Of a stretch of DNA of 64,000 nt, positions 1,199-35,021 are shown piece by piece. The stretch lies in NCBI GenBank assembly GCA_946407495.1, contig CAMJOB010000001.1, positions 9,549-73,548 on the forward strand. Direction: 5' to 3'. Position 1 is the first letter of the stretch; each line of letters starts with the position of its first letter. The notes under the pieces are model-generated. The model did not search any database and had not been told where the DNA came from. It saw only the letters and a program-made list of their open reading frames with translations. The stretch is from an uncultured Bacillota bacterium. Its GTDB lineage: Bacteria; Bacillota_I; Bacilli_A; RF39; UBA660. A program made the position numbers and the translations under genes.

Positions 1199-1270
1199 TC
1201 CCTTATGGTGTAATGGTCAGCACAGGAGGCTCTAACCCTCTTAGTCTGCGTTCGAATCGTAGTAGGGGTA
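1199..1270 (+). tRNA. amber suppressor tRNA, anticodon CUA (reads UAG); short variable arm and mismatched 1:72 pair favour a Gln-type identity
   Basis: Manual cloverleaf: acceptor tccctta/taggggt (U1:U72 mismatch, A73), U8, D-stem gtgt/gcac with aatggtca loop (G18G19), anticodon stem ggagg/cctct, loop cTCTAac (U33, CUA, A37), 4-nt variable, T-stem ctgcg/cgtag with TTCGAAT loop; no encoded CCA. Confidence 0.8.
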
Positions 1271-1342
1271 CTTCTTCATACTTTTCACGTCACTAAGGTA
1301 TCGGATGACCTTATTGATTTTTACTGTTTTTAATCATGATAA

Positions 1343-10117: not shown

Positions 10118-10361
10118 ACAAGAAGTTATTGATATAGTTGAAGAATTATATGAATGTAAATTTATAGGTAAATTAAAAGTTACAGCATTAGATCCTGTTG
10201 GATATTCTGTAGCAATTGATTTATTATAGGGTGAAGATCCCATATTTATCACTGCAGAATTTCCTCATGATAAATTCTTAAAATTCTTATGTGAAGAATT
10301 AAGAATGAGAACTTTAGATAGAGTACAATTATTTGGTTTATATAAAGTATTTCCTAAATGA
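10074..10361 (+). CDS. small hypothetical protein (95 aa) overlapping TerL 3' end in another frame; one TAG (10227); TGA overlaps portal ATG
   Basis: frame 0 ORF from ATG 10074 through TAG to TGA 10359-10361; acidic helix-rich. Confidence 0.3.
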
Positions 10362-15500: not shown

Positions 15501-18054
15501 GAGTATTACACCAAATGCTATAGAGTCTGTAGTAGCAGAAGAGATTGATGGTAAATTAACTGGTTACTCTACAATAGAACAAACTAAAGATTTTATTGCT
15601 TCTACTGTTGGTGCAGCTGGTGCAGTAACTAATAAATTCCATGATCCTTTATTTAAACATGATTATAGTTATTGGCATAGAAGATATAGTAATTATCCAA
15701 ATTATTCTAATATTGCAAATATAGTTAGTCCAGCTGCTAACGTATATAATAAATATTATGATAATAACAATAATTATTATCAAATAAACTCTTCAAATAT
15801 ATTAGAAAAAGATCTTAAATCATTTATAATATATGATAATAATACTTTAAATATTAACGGTTTAAGTGCTGAAGATAGAAGACATATTTATGGATTATAT
15901 ACAAATTTAAAAGTAATATCTGGTAATAAGTATACAGCATCATTTTATATTAAATTACCTGCAGTTTTTAGTTCAGGATATACATCACTTATCGATGTTC
16001 CTAATTCAAATAACAAATTTAGATGTTCTTTCCAAAATCTTATGTTAAATGTAGGATTTGTAGATGAATTAGCAAAATTAACTCCTAATTTTTATATTAC
16101 TCTTCTTTCTACAGAAAATTCTCTTGAAGATATAGAAAATACAGAATATACTATTGTTGATGGAGAAGAAGTTGAAAATTGGAGTTCAGAAACTCTTTAT
16201 AATACTCAACATAAAAAAGCATATAAGTTTAATAATCAAGGAAATTTAACAGGAAATGGATTTAATAATGGATCAGTTGATCTTGATCAATTTGGATTAT
16301 GGATTAAATTCGGATAGGGTAATTTATTAAATTATTTAAATAAAGCATTTACTATAAGTCTTGGAGATGTTGATAATTCTGGTATAAATATAGAATAGAA
16401 TATAAGATATAGATGGTTTAAAATATGGTTTACATTTACTGCTGATAATAAGCATATTGTTAAAAATTCCGATACTTCATTAACAAATATTGTGGATGAT
16501 CGTGATAGAGCATTTTGTTTTGAACCTTGGACTAATATTTATTCAAATAAATATTCAAGAATATTCTGTGAATTTGCTGCTCCTATGTTAAATTCTGGAA
16601 CTACACCTTTAAAGTTTAGTTCTCAAGAAAAATCTGATGAAGTTTATAGTGTAATTAGTCAAACTAAAAATGCAATTGATTTATCTATAAATAATGTTAG
16701 ACAAGGATTAGAAAAAGTAGGAATAACAATAGATGCTGAACATCCAGAAAAAAGTAAAATAAAACTTAATGCAGATGTATTAGAAGCTGATTTAGCTGAA
16801 GCTACATTTACAGGAAATATTAAAGCAAAAAGTTTTGAAGTACAACCAGAAGGTAGTGATAGTTCTATTTCATTAGTTATTTATAATCCAGACGATACTA
16901 GTTTTGTTCATAAATATATAACTGATCACAATACAACTTTAAAAATAAGTGCGGGAACTCCTGTTTTAGTTTCAACTGTAGGTGAGGATGTATATTTAAT
17001 AAACTTAACTAAGATTAATAAAAATGGAGACATTACATATTATTTTAAAATACGAACAGATATTCCTATTACAATAAAAAATATAGGATATTCTGAAGAA
17101 TCTGGAAGTACTATATCTACATTTAAAATTAAACCAGTAAAATACTTTTTAGATAATGTTTATAATATATATTTAGAGAAATATGTAGCAGAATCAATTG
17201 TAGATACTTAGAATAACACAATAACACTTGGTAATGTTACTTCAAATTCTTTCTATAATAGTCTTAATTGTAGTGGTTTTACTTTTAAGTATTCTACAAA
17301 TGAAGGTGATAAGTCATTAACTTTTGACGGTAATGATAAACCATATATAAAATCTACAGGAGTTTTAAAATACAAATCTATAAATTTAAAACAAGTTGCA
17401 CAAAACATTAGAGATATTAATTATTTTTCTATTAATAGTCCTGTATTTTCATTAGATTATTCAAGGGGCGGCGATATTTATGATATGCCAATATACAGAC
17501 ATAATTTTAGTCAACCAGGTAATTCTGCTTATGATTCAGCTGGAAATCTTCATGTTACAAATGAAGGTTCATTAAGAATGTTTAAAGTATATAAAAACAT
17601 AAATAGTTCAGGAACATTAATTGATTTAACTCACTTTGAAAATAATAAGCGTTCTGATGATAAATATTGTTATGCTATAGAATCTAAAGATCGAACAACA
17701 GGAGAGATTTTCTATCAAATCTTAGGATTTTATAATATTACAACTTATTTTGGAGATCTTACAAATAATAATCGTTATTATGGTGATATTTATGATGTTG
17801 AACAAGGTGATGGTTCAAAATGTTTTTCAATAGCAGAAAATATAATTAATAATTGTTTTGTAATAGGATGTTTTATTAGTAAAAATCTTAATGAAAATAC
17901 ATTAACTGATAATAATAATAGCTATAGAGTATTTTTCAATGAAGATGAATGTACTAGACTTAATGACAGATTATCACGTGGTTATGCAGGAGCAATAGGA
18001 AAAGCTAATAATTCTTGGAATAGTAAAAAAATTATAGTAGATAAGTACAATTAA
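12550..18054 (+). CDS. giant virion-associated protein (1834 aa) read through 12 TAG codons; function unknown (head/tail fibre or decoration-like)
   Basis: single frame (frame 1) with no TAA/TGA for 5.5 kb; joins ORF fragments 12955, 14794, 16042, 16492, 17485; ATG overlaps portal TGA (ATGA). Confidence 0.55.
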
Positions 18055-22509: not shown

Positions 22510-24279
22510 ATGAATATAAATAACGGAAAAACAGGAAACGTAAACATCCCTGGAGCACTTCATTCTACAGGTGGCGATGGAGATGGTCAAGTAGGTGGAG
22601 TTGTAGCTTATGCTGGAGATATTTACGATGAAACTCTTGGGAAGAATCAAAAAGAAATTAACCAAACACTTTTAGATGGAAGTGCAGATTCTAATGTTAT
22701 AGTTGTTGCTTTAAATGATTTAAATGAGAAAGTTGAAGAACAAGAAAAAGTTACTTCTGAAGCATTAAATGATTTAAATGAAAAAACAGATAATTTAAAT
22801 AAAGATATTGAAGATTTAGAAAAAACTACATCTTCTTCATTAAACGATTTAAACGATAAATTAAATAATTTAGATAATAATGAAACAATCACATCTATTT
22901 CATTAAATGATTTAAATGAGAAAGTAGATGATTTAAATGATAAAACAAATAATGATGAATTAGTTACAGCATCTGCTTTAACTGATTTAAATGATAAATG
23001 TATACAAAAAGATGAAGATGGAAATGTAATTATTTAGAAAATTAAATTAGATGTATCAAAACCACCTAGACAAATAAATGAAAGAATAAAAATACAATTT
23101 ATAGATGATATAGATTTATTTGTTTCTCAATATATAAAATTACTTAAAATTATATACGAATCTGAAATATCTAATCTACCTGCTGATTAGGTAAATGAAT
23201 TTTGGAATGAACAAGAACAATCAATTCGTGAAAGACAAGAAAATTATAAATTATTTATAATTAATAATGATAAATATAAAAATTTAATAATTTCTGAAAT
23301 TTATGATGCTAATAATAATTTAGTAGAAGAAGTAGAAGGTGAAATTCCAGGATTGATTATGATTCCTAAAGAATCTTCTATTGTAGCTAATACTGATTAT
23401 TATCTTAATAGTTTTCATGTAATTGATGAAGAATTTATAACTATTTTTGATTTAAAAAGATCAGGAAAACTTTATTTACAAGGAGTAGGTAATTATGGAG
23501 AATCTAATTCTAATGAAGAATCAGATGAAGAATCAAGTGAAAATTCTGAAAATCCTAAATCAGTACAAGAAGTAATTTTTGATTTAAAAAATAATTTACA
23601 AAATCTAAATTTAGATTTTAAAAATAATTTAAAAATAGACAGTCAAGGAAATTTAGTTGTTCATGAAATAGGAACTTACGAAAAAGAAACACATGGATCA
23701 TCTGGCTTTCATTTATCAGATGATTATGAAAAAATATATACAGCTTTAACTTATGATCCAGATTCTTCTACTACTCCTCAATTGGATGTTTATACTCAAG
23801 AAGAGTTAAAACAAAAATTAGTACAAGATAATTTAATTAATCCTGATTATTATTATTATGTAGTAGTAAATTATGATGGATCACCATATTTAGCAGGTGA
23901 TAGTTTTTATAATCCAAATAATATTGATGGTTTTTCAAAATTTGTAAGAATAAGAATGAATGACGATTATGTTGAGTTTTCTGATTATATTGAAAAACGT
24001 AATAATGATGATATTATTGCTTATATAGTAATTGGATTAGAAACAGAATTTTCTGGAGATCTTTCAAATGTACTTTTAATGTATGACCATTATCCTAAAT
24101 TTGATAAATATATAAGTAAAATCAATTTAAATGATGGAAAGTTATATTTATCAGGAATAGGTAATTATACACCAACAAATCCTTCTTATAATGGTATTCT
24201 TAGTCTTTAGGAAGTAATTGCAAATTTAACAAGCAGAATTGAAACATTAGAAAATCAATTAAATGGAGGAAATTCTTAA
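22510..24279 (+). CDS. fibre-like protein with coiled-coil LNDLNEK repeats (589 aa); 3 TAG
   Basis: frame 1 continuous through TAG 23035, 23188, 24208 to TAA 24277-24279. Confidence 0.45.
22708..23000 (+). repeat. tandem ~14-codon repeats encoding (S/A)LNDLNEK, six or more copies
   Basis: gcattaaatgatttaaatgaRaaa-type units repeated in frame. Confidence 0.6.
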
Positions 24280-24297
24280 TAAATTTTAACGTATTAT

Positions 24298-24330
24298 TTT
24301 TGTTAGTTAAATTAATAAATTGTATATTTG
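24298..24330 (+). promoter_or_regulatory. Bacteroidetes-type promoter candidate (TTTG 24298-24301, spacer 21, TATATTTG 24323-24330)
   Basis: motif pair about 35 nt upstream of ATG 24364. Confidence 0.35.
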
Positions 24331-24363
24331 TTTATATTTTATTAATTTAATTAACAATGTAAT

Positions 24364-24735
24364 ATGAACGATATACGAAAAACTTTAATGTTATTAAAAA
24401 ACATAAACAAATACGGAATATTCGCATTAACTTTAATATGTATTATATATTGTGGTTTAATGTATTTTGGATATGATTATTTTGGTATCCATTTAGCTTT
24501 ATTCGGATTTGCTTTAGGTTTAAGACTAACTTTATCAAAAGTATTTGGTTTATGTTGGGTACATAGATTATGTATTATTTATATATTTCTTATATCATTT
24601 TGCGTAGCAACATTAAGACATAATATATTTAATATATTAGGCGTAGATATAAAATTAATAGAAGGTTTGTTATTTGGAATAGGACTATTACTTATTCCAT
24701 TAACGTTTTGGAAACTTAAAAACAAAAATTGTTAA
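24364..24735 (+). CDS. small polytopic membrane protein (about 4 TM, 123 aa), GtrA-like flippase candidate
   Basis: hydrophobic segments; KYGIFALTLICIIY ... LSKVFGLCWVHR loosely resembles GtrA-family pattern; size matches. Confidence 0.3.
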   Translation: MNDIRKTLMLLKNINKYGIFALTLICIIYCGLMYFGYDYFGIHLALFGFALGLRLTLSKVFGLCWVHRLCIIYIFLISFCVATLRHNIFNILGVDIKLIEGLLFGIGLLLIPLTFWKLKNKNC

Positions 24736-24738
24736 ATT

Positions 24739-25536
24739 ATGAATAAATATTTAAAACTTTTCGAAACAGAAGACGATTTTAAAAGTTGTCTTGAAGCTAA
24801 AATTGGTGGTGATAATACCGAAATGGGATTTCCAAATGTATCTGTAATAGGAGTAGAAGATAGTAATGGAAATTTTTCAGCAAGTGACGTTTTTTATATT
24901 AAAGATCTTAATAAAGCTGAAGCTGTTCGTGAGTATTTACGTTTAAACGGTAGTCGTTGGATTAATCCTACTGATATAAATATTGTATCATCAGAAGGAC
25001 ACGAGATAAAAACATTAAGTGTAACTATTAATAATCATATGGGTTATAATGGTTATCCTGAAAATTGGGCTGTTGTAAGATTTCAACCATATGATTGGTA
25101 TGATAAAAAAACTAATACTACATATTATGCATTTATAAGTAACGATGCTTATAAAAATATCACATATAGTACTGGAAATATAAATGTTCTTGATGGAAAT
25201 GATATCGCAATAAATCTTGTAAAAGGTTATAATGGATATGGGCCTAATGAACGACTTTCAAGTTATAATCCTCCTGATAATACTGTACCTCCATTTCATG
25301 GAAAAATCATATATGTAAAAGATTTATCAGGACATACAAGTTATAACGATACACTTCATGAAATTTATGAAAGAACATTTAATGTAGATGCACAGAGTAA
25401 TCTTACATTTAATGATGATATAAAACCATTTGAAGCTGATGGTGCTAGTTATCATGGAGTATATTATTCTAATTCTTATAATAATGCAATTGAAGGTTAT
25501 ATTGATTCAGGTTCTGGCTCAGGATCTGGTAATTAA
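24739..25536 (+). CDS. hypothetical protein (265 aa) ending in GSGSGSGN linker
   Basis: ORF track; TAA. Confidence 0.35.
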   Translation: MNKYLKLFETEDDFKSCLEAKIGGDNTEMGFPNVSVIGVEDSNGNFSASDVFYIKDLNKAEAVREYLRLNGSRWINPTDINIVSSEGHEIKTLSVTINNHMGYNGYPENWAVVRFQPYDWYDKKTNTTYYAFISNDAYKNITYSTGNINVLDGNDIAINLVKGYNGYGPNERLSSYNPPDNTVPPFHGKIIYVKDLSGHTSYNDTLHEIYERTFNVDAQSNLTFNDDIKPFEADGASYHGVYYSNSYNNAIEGYIDSGSGSGSGN

Positions 25537-25552
25537 TATTATTAATATAGAT

Positions 25553-25590
25553 AAGTTTGCTAGTATTTCTAGCAAACTTTTTTAATTTTA
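25553..25590 (+). terminator. rho-independent terminator
   Basis: perfect 11-bp stem aagtttgctag/ctagcaaactt, loop tattt, then ttttttaatttta. Confidence 0.55.
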
Positions 25591-25597
25591 TATATTT

Positions 25598-27970
25598 ATG
25601 AAAAATTGTATATTAACAGTAATTAAAAATGAACATGAATATCTTGATGAATGGATACAATATCATTTAAATTTAGGAATAGATTATATTTTCATATTTG
25701 AAGATATAGATAGTGATTCACATAAAGAAATCACAGATAAATACGATAAAGTATTTTTGAAAAACATAACATTCTTATTTAATGAAAAGGAAATTAAAAA
25801 GATAAAGGAATCAAAAATATCAAAAACACAAGGAAATATACAACATATGTATTATAAAAGTGGTATTAGTTATATTAAAAAACAATATAATTTTGATTGG
25901 TGTTTTGTAATAGATGACGATGAATTTATCACGCTTGAAAAAGATAAAAATTTAACTAATGTTTTATCTTTATATAATAATTATGATGCTGTTATATTAC
26001 AATGGAAATGTTATGGTGCAAATAGATATGTAAATAAACCAGATTATAGTAAAGGAACTATTGAAACATTTACAAAAGAAATTACAGGAAAATTACCTGA
26101 CCGATCTAAATCTTTAGTTAAAACTTGTTATAATTTAAATAAATATAAAGAAGGAAATCTTTCATCTCAACATTTACCTTCATTAGATTCTAATTGGTGT
26201 AAAACAGATTTTAGTAAAAATATAGAAATTCCTATTTATAACAATATTTTTATAAGACATTATGTAACAAGGTCTTGGGAAGAATGGATTTGGAAAACAA
26301 AAACAAGAGGAAGTTTTTGGGGAGAAACAAGACATTTAGATACATTCTTTGAAATAAATCCAGATATGGAATATTTAAAAAAGGATTTAATTAATGATTA
26401 TAAAAATAACATAACAAATTGTATTTTTACAATTATTAAGAATGAGCAAGAATATTTAAAAGAATGGATTGATTATCATTTGAATTTAGGTATTAATTAT
26501 ATATTTATATTAGAAGATTTCGATAGTACAAGTCATAAAGAAATTACTGATAAATATTCTAATGTAAAATTAGTTAGAGCTGAAGAATTTCTTACGAAAG
26601 AACAACTTCAAGAAGCAATCGAATTAAAAAAGAAAACAGCTCCTCAAAATTTTTATCTTAAACTTGCTCTTAATCATATTAAAAAATGTCATTCATATAT
26701 AGATTGGTGTTTTATAATTGATAATGATGAGTTTTTAACATTAGAAGAAAATAAAACATTACAAGATATATTTGTAGAATTTCAAAGTTACGATGCTTTT
26801 ATAATGCATTGGGAATGTTACGGAGCAAATAATCTTGTATTTAAACCCGATTATTCTGAAAAAGGAGTTGTTGAAACATATACAAAACCAGCAAGAGGAA
26901 GATTATTAAATGAAGATCGATTAAAAGTTAAAACTTGTTATAATATGAATAAATATAAAGATGGATATTTATTTAATATGCATACTCCATCTAATATTTG
27001 TTCTAATAAATGTAATACAAATCATAAAACTAATTTCTTAAATGAAACATATAAAAATATTTATATTAGACATTATATAACAAGATCTTTAGAAGAATAT
27101 CTTTGGAAAAAAGAATCACGAGGACAACAAGAAAGGCGTGATGATAATTTATCAATGTTTTATTGGATAAATCCAGAAATGAAAGATAAAAAAGAAGAAG
27201 ATTTAAAATTATTAAGACCAGAAACTTTAGTAATTTTACCGTATGTTCAAACAGGAGCACAAGGTAATGAAATTAGATTGTGTTTAAACGCTTGGAAAAA
27301 ATTCTGTACTTTTGAATATAAATTTATTGTAGTAGGAGAATTTTCAGATGATTTAAAAACTGAATATTCTTGGGTTGAATTTATGCATTTCTCTAAAATG
27401 AATGATACTAAAGGAGAATATACTCCACATCTGGATATATTTAATAAAATGTTTATATTAATGAATAAATACTATTCACATCAAAACTTTATTTATATTA
27501 CAGATGATGAATATGCAATTAAACCTTTTACTTTAGAAGATATTACAACTACACATTATTTAACTAAAGAAACAAAAGGAAATCCTAATTCACCTTCAAA
27601 TTATTGGTCTAATAATTTATGGAAAACTAAAAAATATTTATTAGAACATAATCATCCTGTTATTAATTATGTAACTCATTATCCTGTATATTTTAATATT
27701 GATAAATTATTAGAACTTGAAAGAAAAATCAATTTAAAAAAGAATAGTTATGTATTAGAAAACTTATATTTTAACATATTCCCTACAAAAAATATGATAC
27801 AAGTTGATTCTATAAGATTAGGTATTTGGGATAATGATATTTTTAGAGATAAATTTAAAGATGCTATAAATAATCCAAATATTAAATTTGTTTGTAATAG
27901 CGTAAAAGGTTGGAGTAAAGAATTAGAAATTGAATTAAATAAAATAATAAACGATGGAAAAACTAACTGA
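25598..27970 (+). CDS. multidomain glycosyltransferase: two tandem GT92-like (DUF23-type) domains plus a third DDE(Y)-containing C-terminal domain (790 aa)
   Basis: repeats NEHEYLDEWIQYHLNLGIDYIFIFED...DWCFVIDDDEFI and NEQEYLKEWIDYHLNLGINYIFILED...DWCFIIDNDEFL; single ORF without TAG. Confidence 0.5.
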   Translation: MKNCILTVIKNEHEYLDEWIQYHLNLGIDYIFIFEDIDSDSHKEITDKYDKVFLKNITFLFNEKEIKKIKESKISKTQGNIQHMYYKSGISYIKKQYNFDWCFVIDDDEFITLEKDKNLTNVLSLYNNYDAVILQWKCYGANRYVNKPDYSKGTIETFTKEITGKLPDRSKSLVKTCYNLNKYKEGNLSSQHLPSLDSNWCKTDFSKNIEIPIYNNIFIRHYVTRSWEEWIWKTKTRGSFWGETRHLDTFFEINPDMEYLKKDLINDYKNNITNCIFTIIKNEQEYLKEWIDYHLNLGINYIFILEDFDSTSHKEITDKYSNVKLVRAEEFLTKEQLQEAIELKKKTAPQNFYLKLALNHIKKCHSYIDWCFIIDNDEFLTLEENKTLQDIFVEFQSYDAFIMHWECYGANNLVFKPDYSEKGVVETYTKPARGRLLNEDRLKVKTCYNMNKYKDGYLFNMHTPSNICSNKCNTNHKTNFLNETYKNIYIRHYITRSLEEYLWKKESRGQQERRDDNLSMFYWINPEMKDKKEEDLKLLRPETLVILPYVQTGAQGNEIRLCLNAWKKFCTFEYKFIVVGEFSDDLKTEYSWVEFMHFSKMNDTKGEYTPHLDIFNKMFILMNKYYSHQNFIYITDDEYAIKPFTLEDITTTHYLTKETKGNPNSPSNYWSNNLWKTKKYLLEHNHPVINYVTHYPVYFNIDKLLELERKINLKKNSYVLENLYFNIFPTKNMIQVDSIRLGIWDNDIFRDKFKDAINNPNIKFVCNSVKGWSKELEIELNKIINDGKTN

Positions 27971-28175
27971 TAAAGATAAGCTCAAACATTTTGGTGCTTG
28001 TGTATTAATTTCAACTTTACATCCTTATTTAGCAATCGGTGCTTCATTAGGAAAAGAATATGGAGATAAAAATGCTGCTGGTAATCATTGGTGTTGGTTA
28101 GATTTAGCAGCAGACGGAATAGGTACTTTAATTGGAATGATTCCTCATTATATTATTTTTGGCTCATGGATTTAA
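27954..28175 (+). CDS. small hydrophobic/membrane protein (73 aa)
   Basis: ORF track; two hydrophobic stretches. Confidence 0.3.
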   Translation: MEKLTDKDKLKHFGACVLISTLHPYLAIGASLGKEYGDKNAAGNHWCWLDLAADGIGTLIGMIPHYIIFGSWI

Positions 28176-28429
28176 AAAGAATATTAGCACAATATTTAAG
28201 AGAGACTGCTGATAAAATAGAATAGAATACTTGTAGTTTAACTGATTCTGAAATAAAACATTTACTTAGATATATAATGCACGAAGAAATGAATAAGCAA
28301 CAAGCTGCTGATTATTTAAATATATCTACAAGAACATTTGATAGATATATAGAATCTGGTAAATTACCTCAAGGTATTCATGTAAGAGGAAGTAAAAACT
28401 TAATTTGGTATAAAGACGAATTAATATAA
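28166..28429 (+). CDS. helix-turn-helix DNA-binding protein, Xis/AlpA (HTH_17)-like; one TAG at codon 21
   Basis: QQAADYLNISTRTFDRYIESGKLPQGIHVRGSKNLIWYKDEL matches excisionase-type HTH pattern. Confidence 0.5.
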
Positions 28430-28430
28430 T

Positions 28431-28967
28431 ATGTTAGGCTCACATAACTCATTTACATATAAAACTTCAAAATGGTTAATATTTGATTTATTTTCTCATT
28501 TTTGGAGATGTCAAGAAAAAACTCTTGATGAACAATATGATTTAGGAGTAAGATATTTTGACATTAGAGTTAGAAAAATAGAAGATGGTTATCAAATTTG
28601 TCATGGAATAATAGATGTTAAAAAGAAATTTATTTCATTAGATGAAATATGTTATTTCATGGGACTAAATTATCCTAATTCTACATTTAGATTAGTTTTA
28701 GAAAGAGGTGACAAATCTGAATTTTTAAGAGATGTTGAATTTATTAAAAGTTTTAAAAATTTAGATGAAGTAATTATTAAAAAACCTTGGGAAACAATTT
28801 ATAAAAGAAAAGAAGCATTACCTATTATAGAATATTCTTTTGAAGATTGGACTTGGAAGAATCTTTTTAAATGTATTTATAAAAATTTAATAAAGAATAA
28901 AGAAAAAATTTCTATAGAGGATGCTTTAGAAGATAAGTCTACTATTCATCTTATGGATTATGTATAA
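28431..28967 (+). CDS. PLC-like phosphodiesterase (PI-PLC X-domain-like), 178 aa
   Basis: LGSHNSFTY ... LGVRYFDIRVRKIEDGYQICHGI reproduces catalytic His / R-x-F-D-I-R / HG motif arrangement of PI-PLC X domains. Confidence 0.45.
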   Translation: MLGSHNSFTYKTSKWLIFDLFSHFWRCQEKTLDEQYDLGVRYFDIRVRKIEDGYQICHGIIDVKKKFISLDEICYFMGLNYPNSTFRLVLERGDKSEFLRDVEFIKSFKNLDEVIIKKPWETIYKRKEALPIIEYSFEDWTWKNLFKCIYKNLIKNKEKISIEDALEDKSTIHLMDYV

Positions 28968-28973
28968 AATTAA

Positions 28974-29012
28974 AAGCTGAGACCAAATAAGGTTTCAGCT
29001 TTTATTATTTTA
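28974..29012 (+). terminator. rho-independent terminator
   Basis: stem aagctgagacc/ggtttcagctt (one G-U), loop aaataa, then ttattatttt. Confidence 0.55.
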
Positions 29013-29116: not shown

Positions 29117-29905
29117 ATGAGTGACACAGTAGACAGAATTATAATGCCAGATAGCAATAATGCTGCAGAAACTATGGCATTAATGAATAATAATAACTGG
29201 ATGAATAATCCATTTATGTATTTAATTTGGTTAGCTTTCTTCGGAAACAATGGATTTGGAGGATTCGGCGGAAATGGTCAAGGAATTCAAAATTCAGAGA
29301 TAATGTCTTAGATTAATGCTTTAAGAAGTCAGATTGCTGAAAATCAGAATACAAATGGATTACAAGCAGCAATAGGTTCTAACCATGAAGCATTACATGG
29401 AATCAATAACGGATTAGGTTTAGGATTTGCTAATACTGCATCTAATATAAACAATGCATCTATGGCAAATGTTTTAAGTCAGAAAGATATTCAAGCACAA
29501 CTTGCAGGAAGTTCTTCTAATATAATTGCATCAATACTTGGACAAACTAATGATATACAGGCACAAGTTGCAGCAAATAACGCAGCAAATGCACTACAAG
29601 CTTGTCAAAATAATAGTGCAATACTAAGTAGAATTGATGCTCAAACAAATGCAGTAGAATCTCAACTTGCTCAAATGAGTTATGCTTTAGCAACAGGAAA
29701 AGGTGAAATTGTAAATCAGAATGATAGAAATACAAATGCTATTCTTCAAGGACAATTAGCACAGACACAGACTATTGTTAATACATTAAATAACCATTGG
29801 CAAGAAGAATTAGCTCAGAAATATCAGGATGCTAAATTAGAGCTTTCACAACTTAATCAAAACGCTACATTGATTGCGGCGCTTAAACCTACAACAACTG
29901 CTTAA
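29117..29905 (+). CDS. hypothetical protein with one TM segment and Gln/Ala/Asn-rich helical region (263 aa); 1 TAG
   Basis: ATG 29117, TAG 29309, continues into ORF 29462..29905; upstream TATATTTG at 29055-29062. Confidence 0.4.
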
Positions 29906-29907
29906 TT

Positions 29908-30270
29908 ATGATTATTATTTATAAGAAACCAGATTATTTTTCTAAATACGGAAAACATTTCAATGAAAAACTCTGTAAATATGCTATATCTTTAATGGAA
30001 CATCATAAATAGCCTTTAAATAAAGAATAGATAGATAGAATATTAAATAACAAAATTCCTGAAAATAATAAACTTTGGGATTATGTATTTGTTGCTAATA
30101 TGGCATATAATGATTTTTATAACAGTTCTATTGAAGATGAAAGACATTTAGCATTATATATAAAAGATTATATTGATGATGAAGACGGATATGAAGGATT
30201 ACCATTTTGTAGATGGTACGCAGATATTAAAGCAAAAAATATAGATGTAGATTTAAATGATATGATTTAA
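29908..30270 (+). CDS. hypothetical protein (120 aa); TAG at codons 36 and 41
   Basis: frame 1 from ATG 29908 to TAA 30268-30270. Confidence 0.35.
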
Positions 30271-31531: not shown

Positions 31532-32665
31532 ATGGCAATAGGAATTGATGAATTAGACGACGATTTTGAGTTTCAGAATCAAGATCCAAACCCAAATCCA
31601 GATGGCGATGAGGGTGGAAATGGTGGAGAAGGTAATCAACCAGATCCAGATAACAATGATGGAAATGGAGGTGCCGAAGAAAATGAAGGAAATGAAGGAA
31701 ATGAAAATGATGGAGGCGGTAACGAAGATATTGATAACGCCACATATGCTTTCCTAAAAACAAAAGGCATTGATGATCCATCCAAAATTAAGTTTGAAAA
31801 CGAAGATACAGGTGAAATCGAAGAAGTAAGTTGGGAAGATTTATCTGAAAAGGATAAATTAGGTATTCTAAACACTTCTAATGTAGATCCTGATAGAGAA
31901 TTAGAAGATCCAGAGATTGCACTAATTAATAGTATTAGAGAAAGCGGTTTGAGTATTGAAGATTACGTACAGGCTATTAAACAGTCTGGTATCGAAGAAG
32001 CTCGTAAGCAATTTGAAGAAAGTAATCCTCCAACTCAACAGTTTGAAGTAGATAACATTCCTGATGATGAATTATATCTTTTAGATTTACAACATAAATT
32101 AGGAGACAATGCTACCGATGAAGAATTATTAAAGGCTCTTGAGATTGAAAAACAAAATCCTGAATTTTTTGCGAAAAAGGTGAACGGATTACGTCAAGAA
32201 TATAAAGCTCTTGAGGAACAGCAACGTAATTTAATTGCTGAACAAGAAAAACAAGAGTATGAAGCAAAATTTGCTAATTTCCAAAACAATATATTAAATG
32301 AGATTCGTTCATTTAATAAAGTCGGTAATTTAGATATTGAGTTAGATGTTAACGATATGAATGAAATCGCTAACGTAATTTTATCAGATGATCCAGCTGG
32401 TGTAAACTATTTACAGAAAGCATTAAGTAGTCCTGCTAATTTAGTTAAAGTAGCATGGTTCTTAACAAAAGGAGAATCTGCATTTAAAGATATTAATGAT
32501 TACTATGCACAGCAGATTAAAGAGGTTTCTAGAGCACAATACAAGAGAGGCTTAGAAGATGGTAAAACTGGGAAAACTTCTAGTCCTATAAGCAAACCTC
32601 ATGTGGTAAAACAACCATCCCAGAATAATATTGTTAAACCAAAGTCAATTGATGACTTAGATTAA
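31532..32665 (+). CDS. putative scaffolding protein (highly acidic D/E/N/G-rich N-terminus, helical C-terminus) upstream of capsid gene
   Basis: composition and position immediately 5' of the capsid gene; 377 aa. Confidence 0.4.
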   Translation: MAIGIDELDDDFEFQNQDPNPNPDGDEGGNGGEGNQPDPDNNDGNGGAEENEGNEGNENDGGGNEDIDNATYAFLKTKGIDDPSKIKFENEDTGEIEEVSWEDLSEKDKLGILNTSNVDPDRELEDPEIALINSIRESGLSIEDYVQAIKQSGIEEARKQFEESNPPTQQFEVDNIPDDELYLLDLQHKLGDNATDEELLKALEIEKQNPEFFAKKVNGLRQEYKALEEQQRNLIAEQEKQEYEAKFANFQNNILNEIRSFNKVGNLDIELDVNDMNEIANVILSDDPAGVNYLQKALSSPANLVKVAWFLTKGESAFKDINDYYAQQIKEVSRAQYKRGLEDGKTGKTSSPISKPHVVKQPSQNNIVKPKSIDDLD

Positions 32666-32679
32666 AAATTAATTAAATT

Positions 32680-34098
32680 ATGTTAATAGCAGAATTTGTA
32701 ACAAATAAACAAAACATGAGTGAAACACGTACCTACGAAGATTTCTATACTTTCCTTGGTACTAATCCTCATAGAATGGGAGTTATCTCTCGTATGTATC
32801 CACACTTAACAGCTACTTATCTTCTTGAATCACTTAAGAATATTTTCTATCAAGACGTTAAGGGTGCTGAGAAACATCAGTCAATTAATTCAATGTTCTT
32901 CGAGTGGGAAATTGAATCTAATCAAATTAAGAGAATACCTTTCGCAGCTGAACCAATTGGTGATGGTAAAGGTGGATCTGAAATTCAAATGTTCTTTACA
33001 GAACGTTACTACGAACAGAATGATATTTTCAAGGTTGATGAAACCTTCCAGCAATTCTTCGTTGTAACAGAACCTACACGTACTCGTGATAATTACTGGT
33101 GTTATATTGTTCGTCTTATCGACGAAGACTATAAGGGTGAACTTGATCGTTCTGGTACTTATGTTGGTGCTACTACACGTTTCCAATCTAACGCATTCCC
33201 AGAACTATCTGAAAAAGGTTTCACAAAGTATCAGTCAAATATCGCTCGTATGCGTAACTATATGACAACTTTCCGTAATGATATTGATTATTCTTCACTT
33301 TATGCAGCACACGAAGAAAACTTCATTAAGATTTCTAAGGGTGAGGGTAACGGAAAGCTTTCTGAAACCATCTATAAGATGGATAAAGCTAAGAAGGTTC
33401 TTCTTGAGAACCACATGTATGCTAAGAACTCTGGTTATTTATTTAACCGTTCTAACATCGATAAGAATGGTCGTCCTACTATCGTAGATGCACAAGGTCG
33501 TCCTGTTTATATCGGTGCTGGTATAATTCCACAAATTGAGAAGTTTGCATCTAAATATGTTTATAGTAAGTTCACAATTAACGTACTTCGTACTGTTATT
33601 GCTGAAATGAATGATAAGGCTGATTCTCCAACAGGAAACAACTATATGTTCATTGTTTCTGAACCACTTTGGAATCAAATGCAGGGTGTTCTTTCAGCAC
33701 ATCTTGCTGCTTTCCAAACAGATGGAACTTATCTATATTCTAAGGCTGCTAACGATTACGTAAAAGTTGGTGCTACATTCAATTCTTACGAGTTCGGTGG
33801 AAATAAGATTACATTCAAAGTTGATCGTACATTAACTCGTGAATACGGTAGTGAAAAGGGATTCGGTGTATGTATTGACTTAACAGCTGATAAGACAAGT
33901 AACGCTCCTGCTCTTGGTCTATTCACATTTAAGGGTGGTGAGTTCATTCAAGGTACACTTGAAGGTCTTGGAGGACTTGATGGACTTTCTTCAGGTAAGA
34001 TTTCTTCTCCTGTAGCTGGTTCTAAACTTGCTGTAATGAGTTACGGTGGTGTTGCAGTATTTAATCCTTACAAGAGTTACATTATTACACAGGCATAA
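32680..34098 (+). CDS. major capsid protein candidate (472 aa)
   Basis: size, position after scaffold, and marked shift to highly-expressed codon usage (cgt, ggt, ctt, gct) relative to neighbours; hairpin after stop. Confidence 0.55.
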   Translation: MLIAEFVTNKQNMSETRTYEDFYTFLGTNPHRMGVISRMYPHLTATYLLESLKNIFYQDVKGAEKHQSINSMFFEWEIESNQIKRIPFAAEPIGDGKGGSEIQMFFTERYYEQNDIFKVDETFQQFFVVTEPTRTRDNYWCYIVRLIDEDYKGELDRSGTYVGATTRFQSNAFPELSEKGFTKYQSNIARMRNYMTTFRNDIDYSSLYAAHEENFIKISKGEGNGKLSETIYKMDKAKKVLLENHMYAKNSGYLFNRSNIDKNGRPTIVDAQGRPVYIGAGIIPQIEKFASKYVYSKFTINVLRTVIAEMNDKADSPTGNNYMFIVSEPLWNQMQGVLSAHLAAFQTDGTYLYSKAANDYVKVGATFNSYEFGGNKITFKVDRTLTREYGSEKGFGVCIDLTADKTSNAPALGLFTFKGGEFIQGTLEGLGGLDGLSSGKISSPVAGSKLAVMSYGGVAVFNPYKSYIITQA

Positions 34099-34126
34099 TT
34101 CAGATAAATTTTATATACAATAGATT

Positions 34127-34157
34127 GTGAGAGAGCATTAAGACTCTCTCACTTTTA
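34127..34157 (+). terminator. hairpin / partial terminator after capsid gene
   Basis: perfect 9-bp stem gtgagagag/ctctctcac, 8-nt loop, followed by tttt. Confidence 0.45.
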
Positions 34158-34175
34158 AATGATAATACGAAATAA

Positions 34176-35021
34176 ATGGCTAAGGAAATGAATCAATTTG
34201 AAGCAAGTAATAAAATAATACTTCGCTCAGTATACGGAAAAACAGAACAAAAATATTGGATAGCTCCAGTTAAAGATCCTAAAACAAGACGTTATCCAGA
34301 TTGTGTAAAAGAAGTAGATGATCGCGGAAATCTTATAATGACAGATGCAGAAAGAAATTCTGGTAATGTATTTCTAAGTGCTGATGAACCTATTATGGTT
34401 CAAGACGGTAAGATTTTCGATCTAACTAATCCAGTTGATGCAGCAGAATGGGAAGCTATTAAAAATAGTTTTTTAATTGCATCAGATAGATATGCTACAG
34501 ATGAAAACGGAAACTCTATTATAGATGGACATATTGATAGAGTTACTCATATGCCTACTTACGGTAGAGCAGAACTTTATGTTTATAAACCAGGTGAAGC
34601 AGCTAAGAATAAAGTTTCAAGAGCTAAACTTAAGAATACTGCTATAACTTATATTATTGAAGATTCACTTGAACATCAAGTACAAATAGCAAGATTACTT
34701 GGTAAACATATGGAACACGTTCATCACGCAGATTTAGAAAATTATCTTATTGAAACTGCAGAAAGAGATCCACAAAAGATTATCAACCTTTATCGCGGTA
34801 ATGATACAGAACTTAGAATTATGTTCTATGAAGCTGTAGATAGAAAAATTATTGAGATAAAAGATGGAATTTACGTATACGATGGTTCTATTAACTTAGG
34901 CGGAACTGACGACTCTTCTATTTCTTGGCTTAAAGACGCTAAGAATAAAAAGTGGTTAGATCGTATTACTGAAGAGGTTTATCCAGAATTTGCAAAGAAA
35001 AATAAATCAAATAAAGAATAA
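34176..35021 (+). CDS. hypothetical head-module protein (281 aa)
   Basis: ORF track, no TAG. Confidence 0.35.
   Translation: MAKEMNQFEASNKIILRSVYGKTEQKYWIAPVKDPKTRRYPDCVKEVDDRGNLIMTDAERNSGNVFLSADEPIMVQDGKIFDLTNPVDAAEWEAIKNSFLIASDRYATDENGNSIIDGHIDRVTHMPTYGRAELYVYKPGEAAKNKVSRAKLKNTAITYIIEDSLEHQVQIARLLGKHMEHVHHADLENYLIETAERDPQKIINLYRGNDTELRIMFYEAVDRKIIEIKDGIYVYDGSINLGGTDDSSISWLKDAKNKKWLDRITEEVYPEFAKKNKSNKE

What the first reader, a model, noticed from the sequence alone, without database searches (positions are those of the whole stretch)
24280..29012. Terminator-flanked accessory island: GtrA-like membrane protein, tandem GT92-like glycosyltransferase, small membrane protein, Xis-type HTH, PLC-like phosphodiesterase
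A self-contained block sits between the tail-fibre genes and the lysis cassette. Its own Bacteroides-type promoter is at 24298-24330, with an internal terminator at 25553 and an end terminator at 28974. It encodes a ~4-TM 123-aa protein of GtrA size and pattern, a 790-aa protein with duplicated GT92/DUF23-type domains (conserved E..YL.EW..YHLNLGI.YIFI.ED ... DWCF.ID.DEF) plus a third domain, a 73-aa hydrophobic protein, an excisionase-like HTH and a PI-PLC-X-like phosphodiesterase. None of these are needed for virion assembly. The set resembles serotype-conversion gtrABC logic (flippase plus glycosyltransferases), but with GT92-type enzymes and a lipid/polysaccharide phosphodiesterase. This could be a novel host-surface (capsule/LPS) modification or virion glycosylation system carried by a crAss-like phage.
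Basis: inference. Interest (0 to 1): 0.7.

Follow-up and report, generated by a model that had tools for sequence, protein, structure and literature searches.

The report
Phage glycosylation enzyme with Ser-Gly partner
A gut crAss-like phage carries a three-domain sugar-transferring enzyme that, across dozens of unrelated phages, always sits next to a protein with a Ser-Gly repeat tract, which points to a previously undescribed phage system that decorates its own proteins with (phospho)sugars rather than remodelling the host surface.

Summary
The ORFs, the promoter, the two terminators, the tandem GT92 domains, the HTH and the PI-PLC-like enzyme are real. The window is a TAG-recoded crAss-like phage.

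The block is not one functional island and is not gtrABC-like:
- The 123-aa membrane protein shows no GtrA relationship.
- That protein, the 73-aa YfiM-like protein and the HTH are backbone genes, also present in relatives that lack the glycosyltransferase.

The GT92+Stealth-like unit (~515 aa) is abundant in metagenomic phages. In 26 of 38 non-redundant loci, an (SG)n≥3 tract lies on the same strand within 1.5 kb upstream; about 0.9 are expected by chance. GT92-only loci have none. Related LRR proteins away from this enzyme rarely carry SG tracts.

Best reading (about 0.5): a late-expressed cytoplasmic enzyme O-(phospho)glycosylates the Ser-Gly tract of a co-encoded, hypervariable, probably virion-associated protein. 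This is inference only; no biochemistry exists.

The parts
24299..24330 (+). Bacteroides-type promoter motif (TTTG, 20 nt, TATATTTG), 34 nt upstream of mem123
   Evidence: one of 8 matches in the window (2.9 expected). All five + strand matches are intergenic and lie just upstream of genes. Sequence read.
24364..24735 (+). mem123: 123-aa membrane protein with 3-4 hydrophobic segments. It is a backbone gene of this crAss-like lineage and is not GtrA.
   Evidence: It has 50 homologues, mostly 126 aa, on ~90-kb crAss-like contigs. It is present at the same position in GT-less phages L010/L011/L012. No Pfam/PHROG/NCBIfam hit. hhalign against GtrA gives probability 0.2%.
24739..25536 (+). p265: soluble 265-aa protein. 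Its N-terminal ~45-aa module is shared with phage BspA-like LRR proteins, its body is hypervariable, and its C-terminal tail is DSGSGSGSGN. It is the proposed acceptor substrate.
   Evidence: Nucleotide identity to the near-identical relative L001 falls to 50-83% here, against 97-100% in the flanks.
25507..25530 (+). (SG)4 tract, the only (SG)n>=3 run in all six frames of the 64-kb window
   Evidence: Codons are mixed (TCA GGT TCT GGC TCA GGA TCT GGT), so this is not a simple DNA repeat. Tracts in other loci mix TCN and AGY serine codons.
25553..25579 (+). Hairpin plus T-run between p265 and GT790: an internal terminator or attenuator, 18 nt before the GT790 start
   Evidence: The stem is conserved in L001 and L002 although the p265 3' end diverges.
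25598..26401 (+). GT790 domain 1 (res 1-268): extra GT92-type GT-A domain with a DDDEF motif
   Evidence: It is absent from the 519-aa variants in close relatives. It is closer (50-56%) to the GT92 domains of other phages than domain 2 is (42-49%).
26408..27211 (+). GT790 domain 2 (res 271-538): GT92-type GT-A domain of the canonical unit, with a DNDEF motif
27218..27967 (+). GT790 domain 3 (res 541-790): divergent Stealth-like (hexose-1-phosphate transferase-like) domain. Conserved residues are E558, DD636-637, H694 (THYP) and R740.
   Evidence: - hhalign of the whole unit against real Stealth proteins selects this domain, with colinear E / N-x-H / DD / H-x-P motifs, but weakly (P 0.03).
- Distant homologues hit Pfam Stealth_CR2 in the homologous region.
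- The window sequence itself has no direct Pfam or PDB sequence hit.
27954..28175 (+). sm73: 73-aa YfiM-like small protein, a backbone gene
   Evidence: phrog_26616, E 7.5e-10. NCBIfam YfiM NF008028, E 1e-6, below the cut-off. Present in GT-less L010-L013.
28166..28429 (+). HTH87: 87-aa HTH_17 / excisionase-type DNA-binding protein with an in-frame TAG at 28223-28225
   Evidence: The 87-aa orthologue was called in L001. A homologue is present in GT-less L010/L011.
28431..28967 (+). PLC178: minimal (178 aa) PLC-like phosphodiesterase with no signal peptide. H5, R41, D44, R46 and H58 are invariant.
   Evidence: It occurs without the GT next to lysis genes in L013. It occurs next to a 2xGT92 + PIG-L + GT25 cluster in the unrelated phage L014.
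28971..29004 (+). Strong intrinsic terminator (14-bp stem plus T-run) that closes the transcription unit
1199..1271 (+). Suppressor tRNA (anticodon CTA). This is context: TAG is read as sense in late genes, including HTH87 and the L001 orthologue of p265.

Best explanation
The functional core is a two-gene module, p265 plus GT790. It is embedded in the plastic region between the tail-fibre genes and the lysis genes of a TAG-recoded crAss-like phage.

GT790 is a soluble, late-expressed, three-domain enzyme. It has two GT92-type inverting glycosyltransferase domains and a divergent Stealth-like sugar-1-phosphate transferase domain.

I propose the following mechanism.
1. GT790 acts in the cytoplasm on the Ser-Gly tract at the C-terminus of p265.
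2. The Stealth-like domain attaches a sugar-1-phosphate, either directly to serine (phosphoglycosylation) or to a first sugar.
3. The GT92 domain(s) add or extend hexoses.
4. The result is an anionic glycan on a hypervariable protein that is probably virion-associated and adhesin- or fibre-like.

The hairpin between the two genes would keep the enzyme sub-stoichiometric to its substrate.

What is shown: the domain identities, the absence of membrane segments, the late-type (TAG-containing) coding context, and a strong two-way genomic coupling between this enzyme family and (SG)n tracts.

What is inferred: that the tract is the acceptor, that the linkage contains phosphate, which domain acts first, and that p265 is in the virion.

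mem123, sm73 and HTH87 are lineage backbone genes of unknown role near the lysis cassette. PLC178 is a separate accessory phosphodiesterase whose link to the module is weak.
For: Enzyme identity
- GT-A + domain 3 fusions recur with GT2 partners as well.

Coupling to (SG)n tracts
- 26 of 38 non-redundant GT92+domain-3 loci have an (SG)n>=3 tract on the same strand within 1.5 kb upstream, and 3 more have one just downstream.
- Background is 5 hits in 322 kb of the same loci, which predicts about 0.9.
- There are none in about 14 GT92-only loci, Fisher p 6e-6.
- There is only one tract in the whole 64-kb window, and it is at the p265 C-terminus.

Reverse test
- Of 69 related BspA-like LRR phage proteins, 7 carry SG tracts, and 4-5 of those have domain 3 nearby.
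- Of the 62 without SG tracts, 2 have domain 3 nearby. Odds ratio 40, p 5.6e-4.

Nature of the tract
- The carriers are heterogeneous: p265-type, LRR, tail-fibre-like and a 141-aa protein. The tract is often a terminal tail, not a linker.
- Codons mix TCN and AGY, so selection acts on the peptide.

Module behaviour
- p265, GT790 and sm73 diverge together from L001 (50-96% nucleotide identity) within 97-100% identical flanks.
- 790-aa and 519-aa enzyme variants coexist among close relatives.

Late, cytoplasmic setting
- No TM or signal segments in p265 or GT790.
- In-frame TAG in HTH87 and in the L001 orthologue of p265.
- The gene lies after tail-fibre genes in three different phage types.

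Sugar-nucleotide supply in relatives
- Some relatives fuse or neighbour sugar-nucleotide enzymes: an epimerase fusion in P0071, and an adjacent UDP-glucose dehydrogenase fragment in L007.
Against: - There is no experimental evidence of any glycosylation.
- About a quarter of the loci (9 of 38) have no (SG)n>=3 tract nearby. Some of these have shorter SGSG or a tract 2-5 kb away.
- Domain 3 has no direct Pfam or PDB sequence match, and the hhalign score is weak (probability 1.7%).
- The catalytic Arg of Stealth enzymes is not aligned.
- Known Stealth enzymes phosphoglycosylate glycans or build capsule polymers; a Ser acceptor is my inference.
- Gene adjacency shows functional linkage, not an enzyme-substrate relation. 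The SG protein could instead be a scaffold, adaptor or primer.
- Virion association of p265 is untested.
Confidence: 0.5

Rival explanations
1. The block is a host-surface (capsule/LPS) modification or serotype-conversion system. The GT builds or modifies a host polysaccharide, the small membrane proteins flip or export it, and the PLC-like enzyme trims it.
For: - GT92/GT-A and Stealth-type enzymes are typical of polysaccharide and capsule synthesis.
- Real Stealth genes sit in capsule or teichoic-type clusters.
- Two small membrane-associated proteins flank the GT.
- Crass-like phages interact with Bacteroides capsules (PMC8375218, title/abstract).
Against: - mem123 is not GtrA-like. It and sm73 are conserved in GT-less phages.
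- Outside the window's clade they never accompany the GT.
- GT790 is soluble, and no polyprenol-linked GT, GT-C, Wzx/Wzy or ABC exporter is present.
- The coding context is late and lytic, with TAG codons.
- This view does not explain the (SG)n coupling.
Confidence: 0.12
2. GT790 makes a free or differently anchored poly(oligosaccharide-phosphate) polymer, or it glycosylates other virion proteins such as tail fibres or capsid. In this view the SG-tract protein is a primer, scaffold, chaperone or docking partner rather than the final glycoprotein.
For: - Multi-domain GT + hexose-phosphate transferase capsule polymerases make such polymers (PMC5974469).
- GalS1, the closest GT92 structure, is a polymerising galactan synthase.
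- The gene follows tail-fibre genes.
- Mycobacteriophage GTs glycosylate capsid proteins (PMC11256854).
Against: - The only recurrent neighbour feature is the SG tract, not any particular structural protein.
- Tracts are often extreme C-terminal tails, which fits a modification site.
- No exporter or anchor genes are present.
Confidence: 0.18
3. There is no functional link. The GT and the SG-tract proteins are independent 'moron' cargo that accumulate in the same recombination hot spot next to tail-fibre genes, and SG tracts are ordinary flexible linkers.
For: The region between the tail fibres and the lysis genes is mosaic. GT, PLC, HTH and mem123 come and go among relatives. SG runs are common linkers in general (my own knowledge).
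Against: - In GT92-only loci that also carry LRR proteins, no SG tracts occur.
- 60 of 69 related LRR proteins lack SG tracts, and those that have them are next to domain 3.
- The tract is on the same strand and immediately adjacent in 26 of 38 loci from very different phages.
Confidence: 0.07
4. GT790 modifies phage DNA (sugar or sugar-phosphate on hypermodified bases) to evade restriction.
For: Phage glycosyltransferases often act on DNA (my own knowledge). The megaphage neighbourhood L005 has nucleotide-metabolism genes.
Against: - The position is in the late structural/lysis region.
- No hydroxymethylase or kinase partners are nearby.
- GT92 and Stealth enzymes have no known nucleic-acid acceptors.
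- This does not explain the SG coupling.
Confidence: 0.03

Closest known systems
CAZy GT92 / Pfam PF01697 (plant galactan synthase GalS1, C. elegans GALT-1)
   Different: Here the domain is phage-encoded, cytoplasmic, duplicated in tandem and fused to a Stealth-like domain. The window protein itself passes the Pfam threshold for PF13704 rather than PF01697. Donor and acceptor are unknown.
Stealth family hexose-1-phosphate transferases (GNPTAB, M. tuberculosis CpsY, meningococcal CsaB/CsxA)
   Different: It is too divergent for any Stealth Pfam model. A CR1-type motif and the conserved Arg could not be matched. It is about 250 aa, fused to GT92 (or GT2 in relatives), and genomically coupled to Ser-Gly protein tracts rather than to capsule loci.
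Mycobacteriophage virion glycosylation (Che8/Rita; Freeman et al. 2023, as cited in PMC11256854)
   Same: Phage-encoded glycosyltransferases that modify the phage's own proteins rather than the host surface.
   Different: The enzyme families differ. There is no Stealth-like domain and no SG-tract acceptor in that system, and the hosts are Actinobacteria. Here nothing has been shown biochemically.
Eukaryotic Ser phosphoglycosylation (GlcNAc-1-P-Ser of Dictyostelium proteinase I) and the CryoSeek 'TLP-2' glycofibril (dipeptide repeat with Ser-phospho-linked glycans; bioRxiv 10.1101/2025.09.30.679562)
   Same: A repetitive X-Ser peptide carries sugar-1-phosphate-linked glycans. This is the chemistry predicted by a Stealth-like + GT enzyme next to an (SG)n tract.
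   Different: No gene has been tied to TLP-2, and the link to this phage family is only an analogy. The tracts here are short (4-18 repeats) and are embedded in globular proteins.
gtrABC serotype-conversion cassettes of temperate enterobacterial phages
   Same: Phage-borne glycosylation genes located outside the core structural set.
   Different: There is no GtrA homologue, no membrane-anchored GtrB-type GT2 and no GtrC. The phage is lytic-type and crAss-like, and the genes are in the late operon.
Bacterial PI-PLC (B. cereus, S. aureus, Listeria PlcA)
   Same: PLC178 shares the catalytic His/Arg/Asp/His constellation and the N-terminal half of the TIM barrel (profile E 7e-11; Foldseek probability 1.0).
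   Different: It is only 178 aa against about 300 aa. It has no signal peptide and is phage-encoded next to the lysis genes. The substrate is unknown.
Multi-domain capsule polymerases such as CslB/Cps12B (GT-A + TagF-like)
   Same: One polypeptide combines glycosyl- and hexose-phosphate-transfer modules, and the number of modules matches the number of linkages in the repeat unit.
   Different: Those enzymes use a TagF-like domain, not a Stealth-like one (PMC5974469). They act in group 2 capsule export systems.

Membership tests
GT92 glycosyltransferase (PF01697 / CAZy GT92) | Sequence match to the family model | tested here: inconclusive
   The window protein matches the related clan model PF13704 (E 8.7e-27, two stretches), not PF01697. 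Many 47-50% identical homologues carry precomputed PF01697 hits.
GT92 glycosyltransferase (PF01697 / CAZy GT92) | GT-A fold closest to a solved GT92 enzyme, with a DxD metal/nucleotide-sugar motif | tested here: met
   [not shown]
GT92 glycosyltransferase (PF01697 / CAZy GT92) | Inverting beta-1,4-galactosyltransferase activity | not testable with these tools
   Needs an enzyme assay.
Stealth hexose-1-phosphate transferase family | Match to the Stealth CR1-CR4 sequence models | tested here: not met
   Domain 3 and 17 homologues have no Stealth Pfam hit at E<=10, and the profile finds no PDB sequence hit. Only distant homologues (P0353, P0287, P0296) reach Stealth_CR2 at E 5e-6 to 1e-3, below the gathering score.
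Stealth hexose-1-phosphate transferase family | Fold similarity to solved Stealth catalytic domains | tested here: met
   [not shown]
Stealth hexose-1-phosphate transferase family | Conserved catalytic residues (DD for Mg, His base, Arg on the transferred phosphate; PMC9388126) | tested here: inconclusive
   DD636-637 and H694 (THYP) align with the Stealth NDD and H-x-P motifs. The Stealth FR arginine falls in a gap. An invariant R740 exists but is not aligned.
gtrABC serotype-conversion system | GtrA-family 4-TM flippase (PF04138) | tested here: not met
   mem123 and four homologues have no PF04138 hit at E<=1, while a control GtrA scores 2.6e-13. hhalign gives probability 0.2%.
gtrABC serotype-conversion system | Membrane-anchored GT2 bactoprenol glucosyltransferase (GtrB) and a multi-TM GtrC | tested here: not met
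   GT790 has no hydrophobic segment. No other GT or multi-TM protein larger than 123 aa is in the block.
PLC-like phosphodiesterase (PI-PLC X domain) | Catalytic His...Arg/Asp...His motifs and a TIM-barrel fold | tested here: met
   H5, R41, D44, R46 and H58 are invariant in 20 sequences. The profile hits S. aureus, Listeria and Bacillus PI-PLC at E 7e-11 to 1e-5. Foldseek gives probability 1.0 with TMq about 0.5. A single-sequence Pfam hit reaches only E 0.08.
PLC-like phosphodiesterase (PI-PLC X domain) | Activity on phosphatidylinositol | not testable with these tools
   Needs an assay. The protein is about 120 aa shorter than characterised bacterial PI-PLCs.
Excisionase / HTH_17 | PF12728 match at or above the gathering score | tested here: met
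   27.2 bits against a cut-off of 27.0. TIGR01764 is below its cut-off. No integrase partner was seen, so a role as an excisionase is not implied.
YfiM-family small lipoprotein | Match to NF008028 / DUF2279 and a lipobox | tested here: inconclusive
   29 bits against a cut-off of 117, matching only the C-terminal motif. phrog_26616 'lipoprotein' scores E 7.5e-10. No lipobox is evident in the sequence.
Phage virion/protein self-glycosylation systems | Covalent glycan on a phage-encoded protein, dependent on the phage GT | not testable with these tools
   Only genomic coupling is shown.

The most novel reading that the evidence does not exclude
GT92+Stealth-like enzymes and their adjacent (SG)n-tract proteins constitute a widespread, previously unrecognised phage-encoded protein phosphoglycosylation system, with Ser-O-phosphate-linked glycans on Ser-Gly repeats. 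It would be the first such system outside eukaryotes. Gut and rumen phages (crAss-like to megaphages) would use it to coat hypervariable adhesin- or fibre-like proteins with anionic glycans. It may also be the genetic basis for glycan-coated dipeptide-repeat fibrils seen in environmental cryo-EM.
Probability: 0.3. Interest if true: 0.9.

Novelty: new variant of a known kind. Interest (0 to 1): 0.72.

Why it matters
Glycosylation of phage proteins by phage enzymes is known from only a few cases (mycobacteriophages). It affects immune recognition, stability and possibly host or mucus binding.

Here a single enzyme family is abundant in gut and rumen phage metagenomes but essentially absent from deposited phage genomes (one weak hit among 50,697 records). 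It is tied by comparative genomics to a simple, recognisable acceptor-like motif.

That gives a directly testable enzyme-substrate pair: a 265-aa protein plus one enzyme. It also gives a predicted unusual chemistry, a sugar-phosphate linkage from a Stealth-like domain, and a possible new layer of variation in crAss-like phage-host and phage-mammal interactions. The enzyme exists in 1-GT and 2-GT versions among near-identical phages, next to a hypervariable partner.

The result also corrects annotation. Standard-code gene calling truncates genes here, and the 'GtrA/serotype conversion' frame would mislead.

Tried and rejected
- Nucleotide search of the block against GenBank phages: no match.
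- tblastn of the GT unit against the same collection: one weak hit to a 595-kb uncultured phage.
- Genome-contig scan with GT790: nothing confirmed. The patterns were specific to this sequence, so this does not show absence from bacteria.
- Exact look-up of GT790: not on record.
- PDB sequence searches with GT790 and with a domain-3 profile: no hits.
- Pfam on domain 3 and 17 homologues: nothing relevant.
- PADLOC: only a generic HTH hit.
- NCBIfam: nothing for mem123, GT790 or PLC178.
- GtrA hypothesis: rejected.
- CslB as a Stealth-containing analogue: rejected after reading PMC5974469. CslB uses a TagF-like domain.
- PLC178 as an 'uncovering' partner of the Stealth-like domain: not supported by co-occurrence. 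PLC accompanies the GT only in the window's clade, occurs without it in L013, and occurs with a different GT92 cluster in L014.
- TAG-free status of the block as evidence of recent acquisition or early expression: rejected. HTH87 and the L001 orthologue of p265 contain in-frame TAG, and the downstream lysis and capsid genes are also TAG-free.
- SG tract as a slippage-prone DNA repeat: rejected because the codons are mixed.
- Apparent ORF desert at 59.3-64 kb: simply a >1,500-aa ORF that runs off the window end.
- The third fold search was not used, because no library output would give per-domain ranges.


Full report
**Context**

The window is a low-GC (about 28%) phage genome segment with almost all genes on the + strand.
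- PHROG profiles identify a large terminase (7715-10117), a portal (10358-12553) and a major head protein (32680-34098).
- The 98.7% identical capsid orthologue in a 174-kb relative carries Pfam Crass_capsid. It is therefore a crAss-like phage.
- ARAGORN finds a tRNA with anticodon CTA at 1199-1271.
- Reading TAG as sense fuses many fragments into long ORFs: 12550-18054 (1,838 aa), 22510-24279 (590 aa), 43507-48777 and 48779-51466.
- TAG is therefore recoded in late genes. That it encodes Gln is an assumption from published work on crAss-like phages, not something tested here.
- The gene upstream of the finding is thus a 590-aa coiled-coil tail-fibre-like protein ending at 24279, not the 285-aa ORF of the standard code.

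**Checking the observation**

The ORFs, both terminator-like hairpins and the promoter motif are present at the stated places.
- Hairpins: 25553-25579 and 28971-29004. Five were found in 9.5 kb against 0.9 expected.
- Promoter: TTTG-N20-TATATTTG at 24299-24330. The same motif occurs eight times in the window against 2.9 expected. The five + strand copies all lie in intergenic DNA just upstream of genes.

Two things were missed.
- A 265-aa gene, p265 (24739-25536), lies between the membrane protein and the glycosyltransferase.
- The HTH gene begins at 28166 and contains an in-frame TAG at 28223-28225. This gives an 87-aa protein, as called in the relative L001.

**Gene by gene**

*mem123* has 3-4 hydrophobic segments but no family hit in Pfam, PHROGs or NCBIfam.
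- A profile of 24 homologues aligned against a GtrA sequence gives probability 0.2% over 11 columns. That control sequence itself scores 2.6e-13 on PF04138.

*GT790* matches Pfam Glyco_tranf_2_4 twice (E 8.7e-27).
- Its homologues carry precomputed GT92 (PF01697) hits.

*sm73* matches phrog_26616 and, below threshold, the YfiM lipoprotein family.

*HTH87* is HTH_17 / excisionase-type.

*PLC178* scores only E 0.08 on PI-PLC-X as a single sequence.
- A profile of 20 homologues hits S. aureus, Listeria and Bacillus PI-PLC at E 7e-11 to 1e-5.
- The His, Arg/Asp/Arg and His catalytic positions are invariant.
- The AF2 model (pLDDT 89) finds the same enzymes with Foldseek.

**The block is a mosaic, not a unit**

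In 93-kb crAss-like phages L010/L011, homologues of sm73, mem123 and the HTH lie in the same place, after the tail-fibre genes and before the lysis genes. No glycosyltransferase and no PLC are present. In L012, sm73 and mem123 flank a lysozyme-like gene.

In the 209-kb crAss-like contig L013 the order is tail fibres, sm73, PLC, holin-like gene, endolysin, again without the GT.

Outside the window's own clade (L001, L002), none of mem123, sm73, HTH87 or PLC178 is found within 8-10 kb of the roughly 40 other GT homologues examined.

The PLC family does co-occur once more with glycosylation genes. In the unrelated 87-kb phage L014 it lies next to two adjacent single-domain GT92 genes, a PIG-L deacetylase and a GT25 gene. 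A loose link to glycan metabolism therefore remains possible.

**Architecture of GT790**

BLAST of 120 homologues shows that the common form is about 515 aa and corresponds to residues 272-790 of GT790. That is one GT92 domain plus the 'third domain'.
- The window protein has an extra N-terminal GT92 domain.
- Close relatives (at least 90% identical over the shared part) exist in both 790-aa and 519-aa versions.
- Domain 1 is more similar to the GT92 domains of other phages (50-56%) than domain 2 is (42-49%). This suggests acquisition by recombination rather than local duplication.
- Some homologues are further fused to an NAD-dependent sugar-nucleotide epimerase or reductase domain, or are followed by a UDP-glucose dehydrogenase fragment.
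- The long contigs that carry them look like phages, including a 491-kb megaphage-like contig and a 119-kb phage with DNA polymerase III alpha.
- GenBank phages contain essentially no member.

**The third domain**

An AF2 model of residues 272-790, built with 63 homologues, is confident (pLDDT 92.8).

- I retrieved five annotated Stealth proteins from plasmids.
- Profile-profile alignment of the whole unit selects the third domain, not the GT92 domain.
- It aligns QGNEI-RL with the Stealth EL(K/R)YxLRS motif, QYNxH with LPTFNSH, xDDxY with FNDD, and THYP with HxP.
- The score is weak, however (P 0.03, probability 1.7%).

Independent support comes from an exhaustive HMMER search with the third domain.
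- It finds 365 representative clusters, many stand-alone (about 250 aa) or fused to GT2 domains.
- Three of the distant members hit Pfam Stealth_CR2 at E 5e-6 to 1e-3; in P0353 and P0296 the hit lies within the region homologous to domain 3, in P0287 at residues 15-102, outside its best domain-3 stretch.
- Direct Pfam or PDB sequence matches for the window's domain are absent, and the Stealth catalytic arginine could not be aligned.

I therefore call it Stealth-like, not a demonstrated member.

**The key finding: coupling to Ser-Gly tracts**

p265 ends in ...IDSGSGSGSGN. Its orthologues end in (SG)6-DYSY (L001) and (SG)5-NN (L002).

In the megaphage-like L005, the gene directly upstream of the GT is a BspA-like LRR protein with (GS)15 and (GS)7 tracts.

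I scanned all six frames of the loci fetched with the GT unit from IMG/VR and, as an independent sample, from metagenomes using a domain-3 profile. I then de-replicated them at 95% nucleotide identity.
- 38 clusters have at least 1.5 kb of upstream sequence.
- 26 have an (SG)n>=3 run on the same strand within 1.5 kb upstream of the GT start.
- 3 more have one only within 2 kb downstream.
- 9 have none. Three of these have a same-strand tract 1.5-4.9 kb upstream, and L003 has GGGGSGSGAG in the 73-aa upstream ORF.
- Elsewhere in those loci there are 5 hits in 322 kb, which predicts about 0.9 loci by chance.
- Loci that encode GT92 homologues without the third domain have none, including some at 37-48% identity and two that also carry LRR proteins. 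The comparison is 15/19 against 0/14, Fisher p 6e-6.
- The whole 64-kb window has a single such run, at the end of p265.

The reverse test also holds.
- Of 69 non-identical BspA-like LRR phage proteins fetched through a conserved C-terminal motif, only 7 contain SG tracts.
- Of these 7, 4 have a domain-3 gene within 4 kb. A fifth has one at 4.3 kb, and another locus ends at the contig edge.
- Only 2 of the 62 proteins without SG tracts have one nearby. Odds ratio 40, p 5.6e-4.

The tract-bearing proteins are not one family.
- They include p265-type proteins, LRR proteins with several kinds of N-terminal module, a tail-fibre-like protein with a C-terminal tract (L037) and a 141-aa protein with (SG)18 (L038).
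- The tract is often a terminal tail rather than an inter-domain linker.
- Its codons mix TCN and AGY serine codons and three glycine codons. The alternation is therefore maintained at the peptide level.

**Module behaviour**

Against L001, whose flanks are 97-100% identical in nucleotides, identity drops as follows:

| Segment | Nucleotide identity to L001 |
|---|---|
| p265 body | 50-83% |
| GT790 | 85-96% |
| sm73 | about 92% |
| From 28210 onwards | 97-99% |

- The C-terminal part of the preceding tail-fibre gene is also replaced.
- p265 thus behaves like a receptor- or environment-facing protein, and the enzyme has diverged with it.
- The N-terminal ~45 residues of p265 (MNKYLKLFETE...PNVS) form a module shared with the LRR proteins next to the GT in other phages, and with a stand-alone 55-aa ORF before the GT of L004.
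- The hairpin between p265 and GT790 is conserved in L001 and L002. No room for a promoter follows it, because only 18 nt remain. GT790 and the downstream genes are therefore probably expressed by read-through at a lower level than p265. This is an inference.

**Interpretation**

Neither p265 nor GT790 has membrane or signal segments. The operon carries TAG codons typical of late genes, and the module lies beside tail-fibre genes in three phage types.

The most economical reading is a cytoplasmic, late, phage-encoded protein-modification system in which the Ser-Gly tract is the acceptor.
- A Stealth-like domain predicts a sugar-1-phosphate linkage.
- Serine-linked GlcNAc-1-phosphate is known from Dictyostelium proteinase I.
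- A glycan-coated dipeptide-repeat fibril with Ser-phospho-linked glycans was recently modelled from pond water (bioRxiv 10.1101/2025.09.30.679562). These are analogies only.
- The closest solved relative of the GT92 domains is a polymerising beta-1,4-galactan synthase. They would add or extend hexoses.
- The 1-GT and 2-GT enzyme variants would then give different glycans in near-identical phages.
- Phage self-glycosylation has a precedent in mycobacteriophages, where it shields capsids from antibodies (PMC11256854, citing Freeman et al. 2023).

**Limits**

- Everything about chemistry and acceptor is inferred from gene neighbourhood and fold.
- A quarter of the loci lack an obvious tract.
- The Stealth assignment rests on structure plus weak or transitive sequence signals.
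- Virion association of p265 is untested.
- The roles of mem123, sm73, HTH87 and PLC178 remain open. Their recurrent position next to holin and endolysin genes suggests lysis- or envelope-related functions for the two small membrane-associated proteins. It suggests a phosphodiester (lipid or glycan) target for PLC178, which starts directly with its catalytic GSH motif and so has no export signal.

**Verdict**

The gtrABC/host-surface model is not supported. The interesting entity is the p265-GT790 pair. It is a member of a large, undescribed family of phage GT92+Stealth-like enzymes coupled to Ser-Gly tract proteins.

Noticed in passing
window 1199-1271 and late genes throughout (e.g. 12550-18054, 22510-24279, 43507-48777, 48779-51466): There is a suppressor tRNA (anticodon CTA), and in-frame TAG codons fuse many standard-code fragments into long structural ORFs. 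TAG is recoded. Several late genes (endolysin, capsid, 31532-35021) are nevertheless TAG-free.
   Followed up: partly
window 2259-4172: The translation of this 637-aa ORF reads like a nuclease-type protein interrupted by an intein with a LAGLIDADG-like insert (…CYKIIFDNGDEIV… to …FIVTHNT). Relatives L010/L011 have Intein_splicing/LAGLIDADG_3 hits on a gene in their structural region. Not checked with a profile for the window.
   Followed up: no
L002 14942-18224; L013 12423-14825: The crAss capsid gene of relatives is split into 2-3 pieces by insertions. In L013 a GIY-YIG endonuclease gene lies between the pieces. This suggests self-splicing introns or homing elements in the major capsid gene. 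The window's capsid gene is intact.
   Followed up: no
window 22510-24279 vs L001 7559-8722: The tail-fibre-like protein just upstream of the block keeps its N-terminal coiled-coil repeats (77% identity). Its C-terminal ~400 aa has been replaced relative to a phage whose other genes are 97-99% identical (590 aa against 387 aa). This is a host-range-type swap adjacent to the p265/GT module.
   Followed up: partly
L014 8001-16224 (ENA ERZ27280571 k141_277491, 86.6 kb): A non-crAss phage (T4-type portal, Terminase_6N) has a PLC178 homologue facing a glycosylation cluster. The cluster holds two adjacent single-domain GT92 genes, a 507-aa and a 338-aa unknown, a PIG-L deacetylase, a GT25 and a zinc-ribbon protein. 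It has no SG tract.
   Followed up: partly
window 529, 2165, 30326, 52573 (+ strand): Four of the five intergenic Bacteroides-type promoter matches begin with the same extended -33 element, TTTGATTTT. The one in front of the block (24299) reads TTTGTTAGT, so it may belong to a different promoter class or strength.
   Followed up: no
L023 6391-11401; L029 2739-7294; L003 4-6367: In several large phages the GT92+Stealth-like gene is sandwiched between two or more BspA-like LRR genes. In L023 and L029 each of these has its own SG tract, which suggests one enzyme serving several substrates.
   Followed up: partly
L004/L031 9992-11143 (IMGVR_UViG_3300032007_000022, 178.7 kb): In this distant crAss-like phage the GT gene ends prematurely inside the third domain (383 aa). 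The upstream p265-like ORF is only the 55-aa N-terminal module, with no SG tract. This may be a decaying copy of the module.
   Followed up: partly
window 29117-29905 and 29908-30270: Between the block and the holin lie two genes that are absent from L002: a 262-aa Gln/Asn-rich coiled-coil protein with an N-terminal hydrophobic, Gly-rich segment (phrog_16490) and a DUF7841 protein. This is another variable piece of the same plastic region.
   Followed up: no
window 59464-64000: The apparently ORF-free 3' end of the window is one ORF of more than 1,500 aa that runs off the window end. The ORF listing does not show it.
   Followed up: yes
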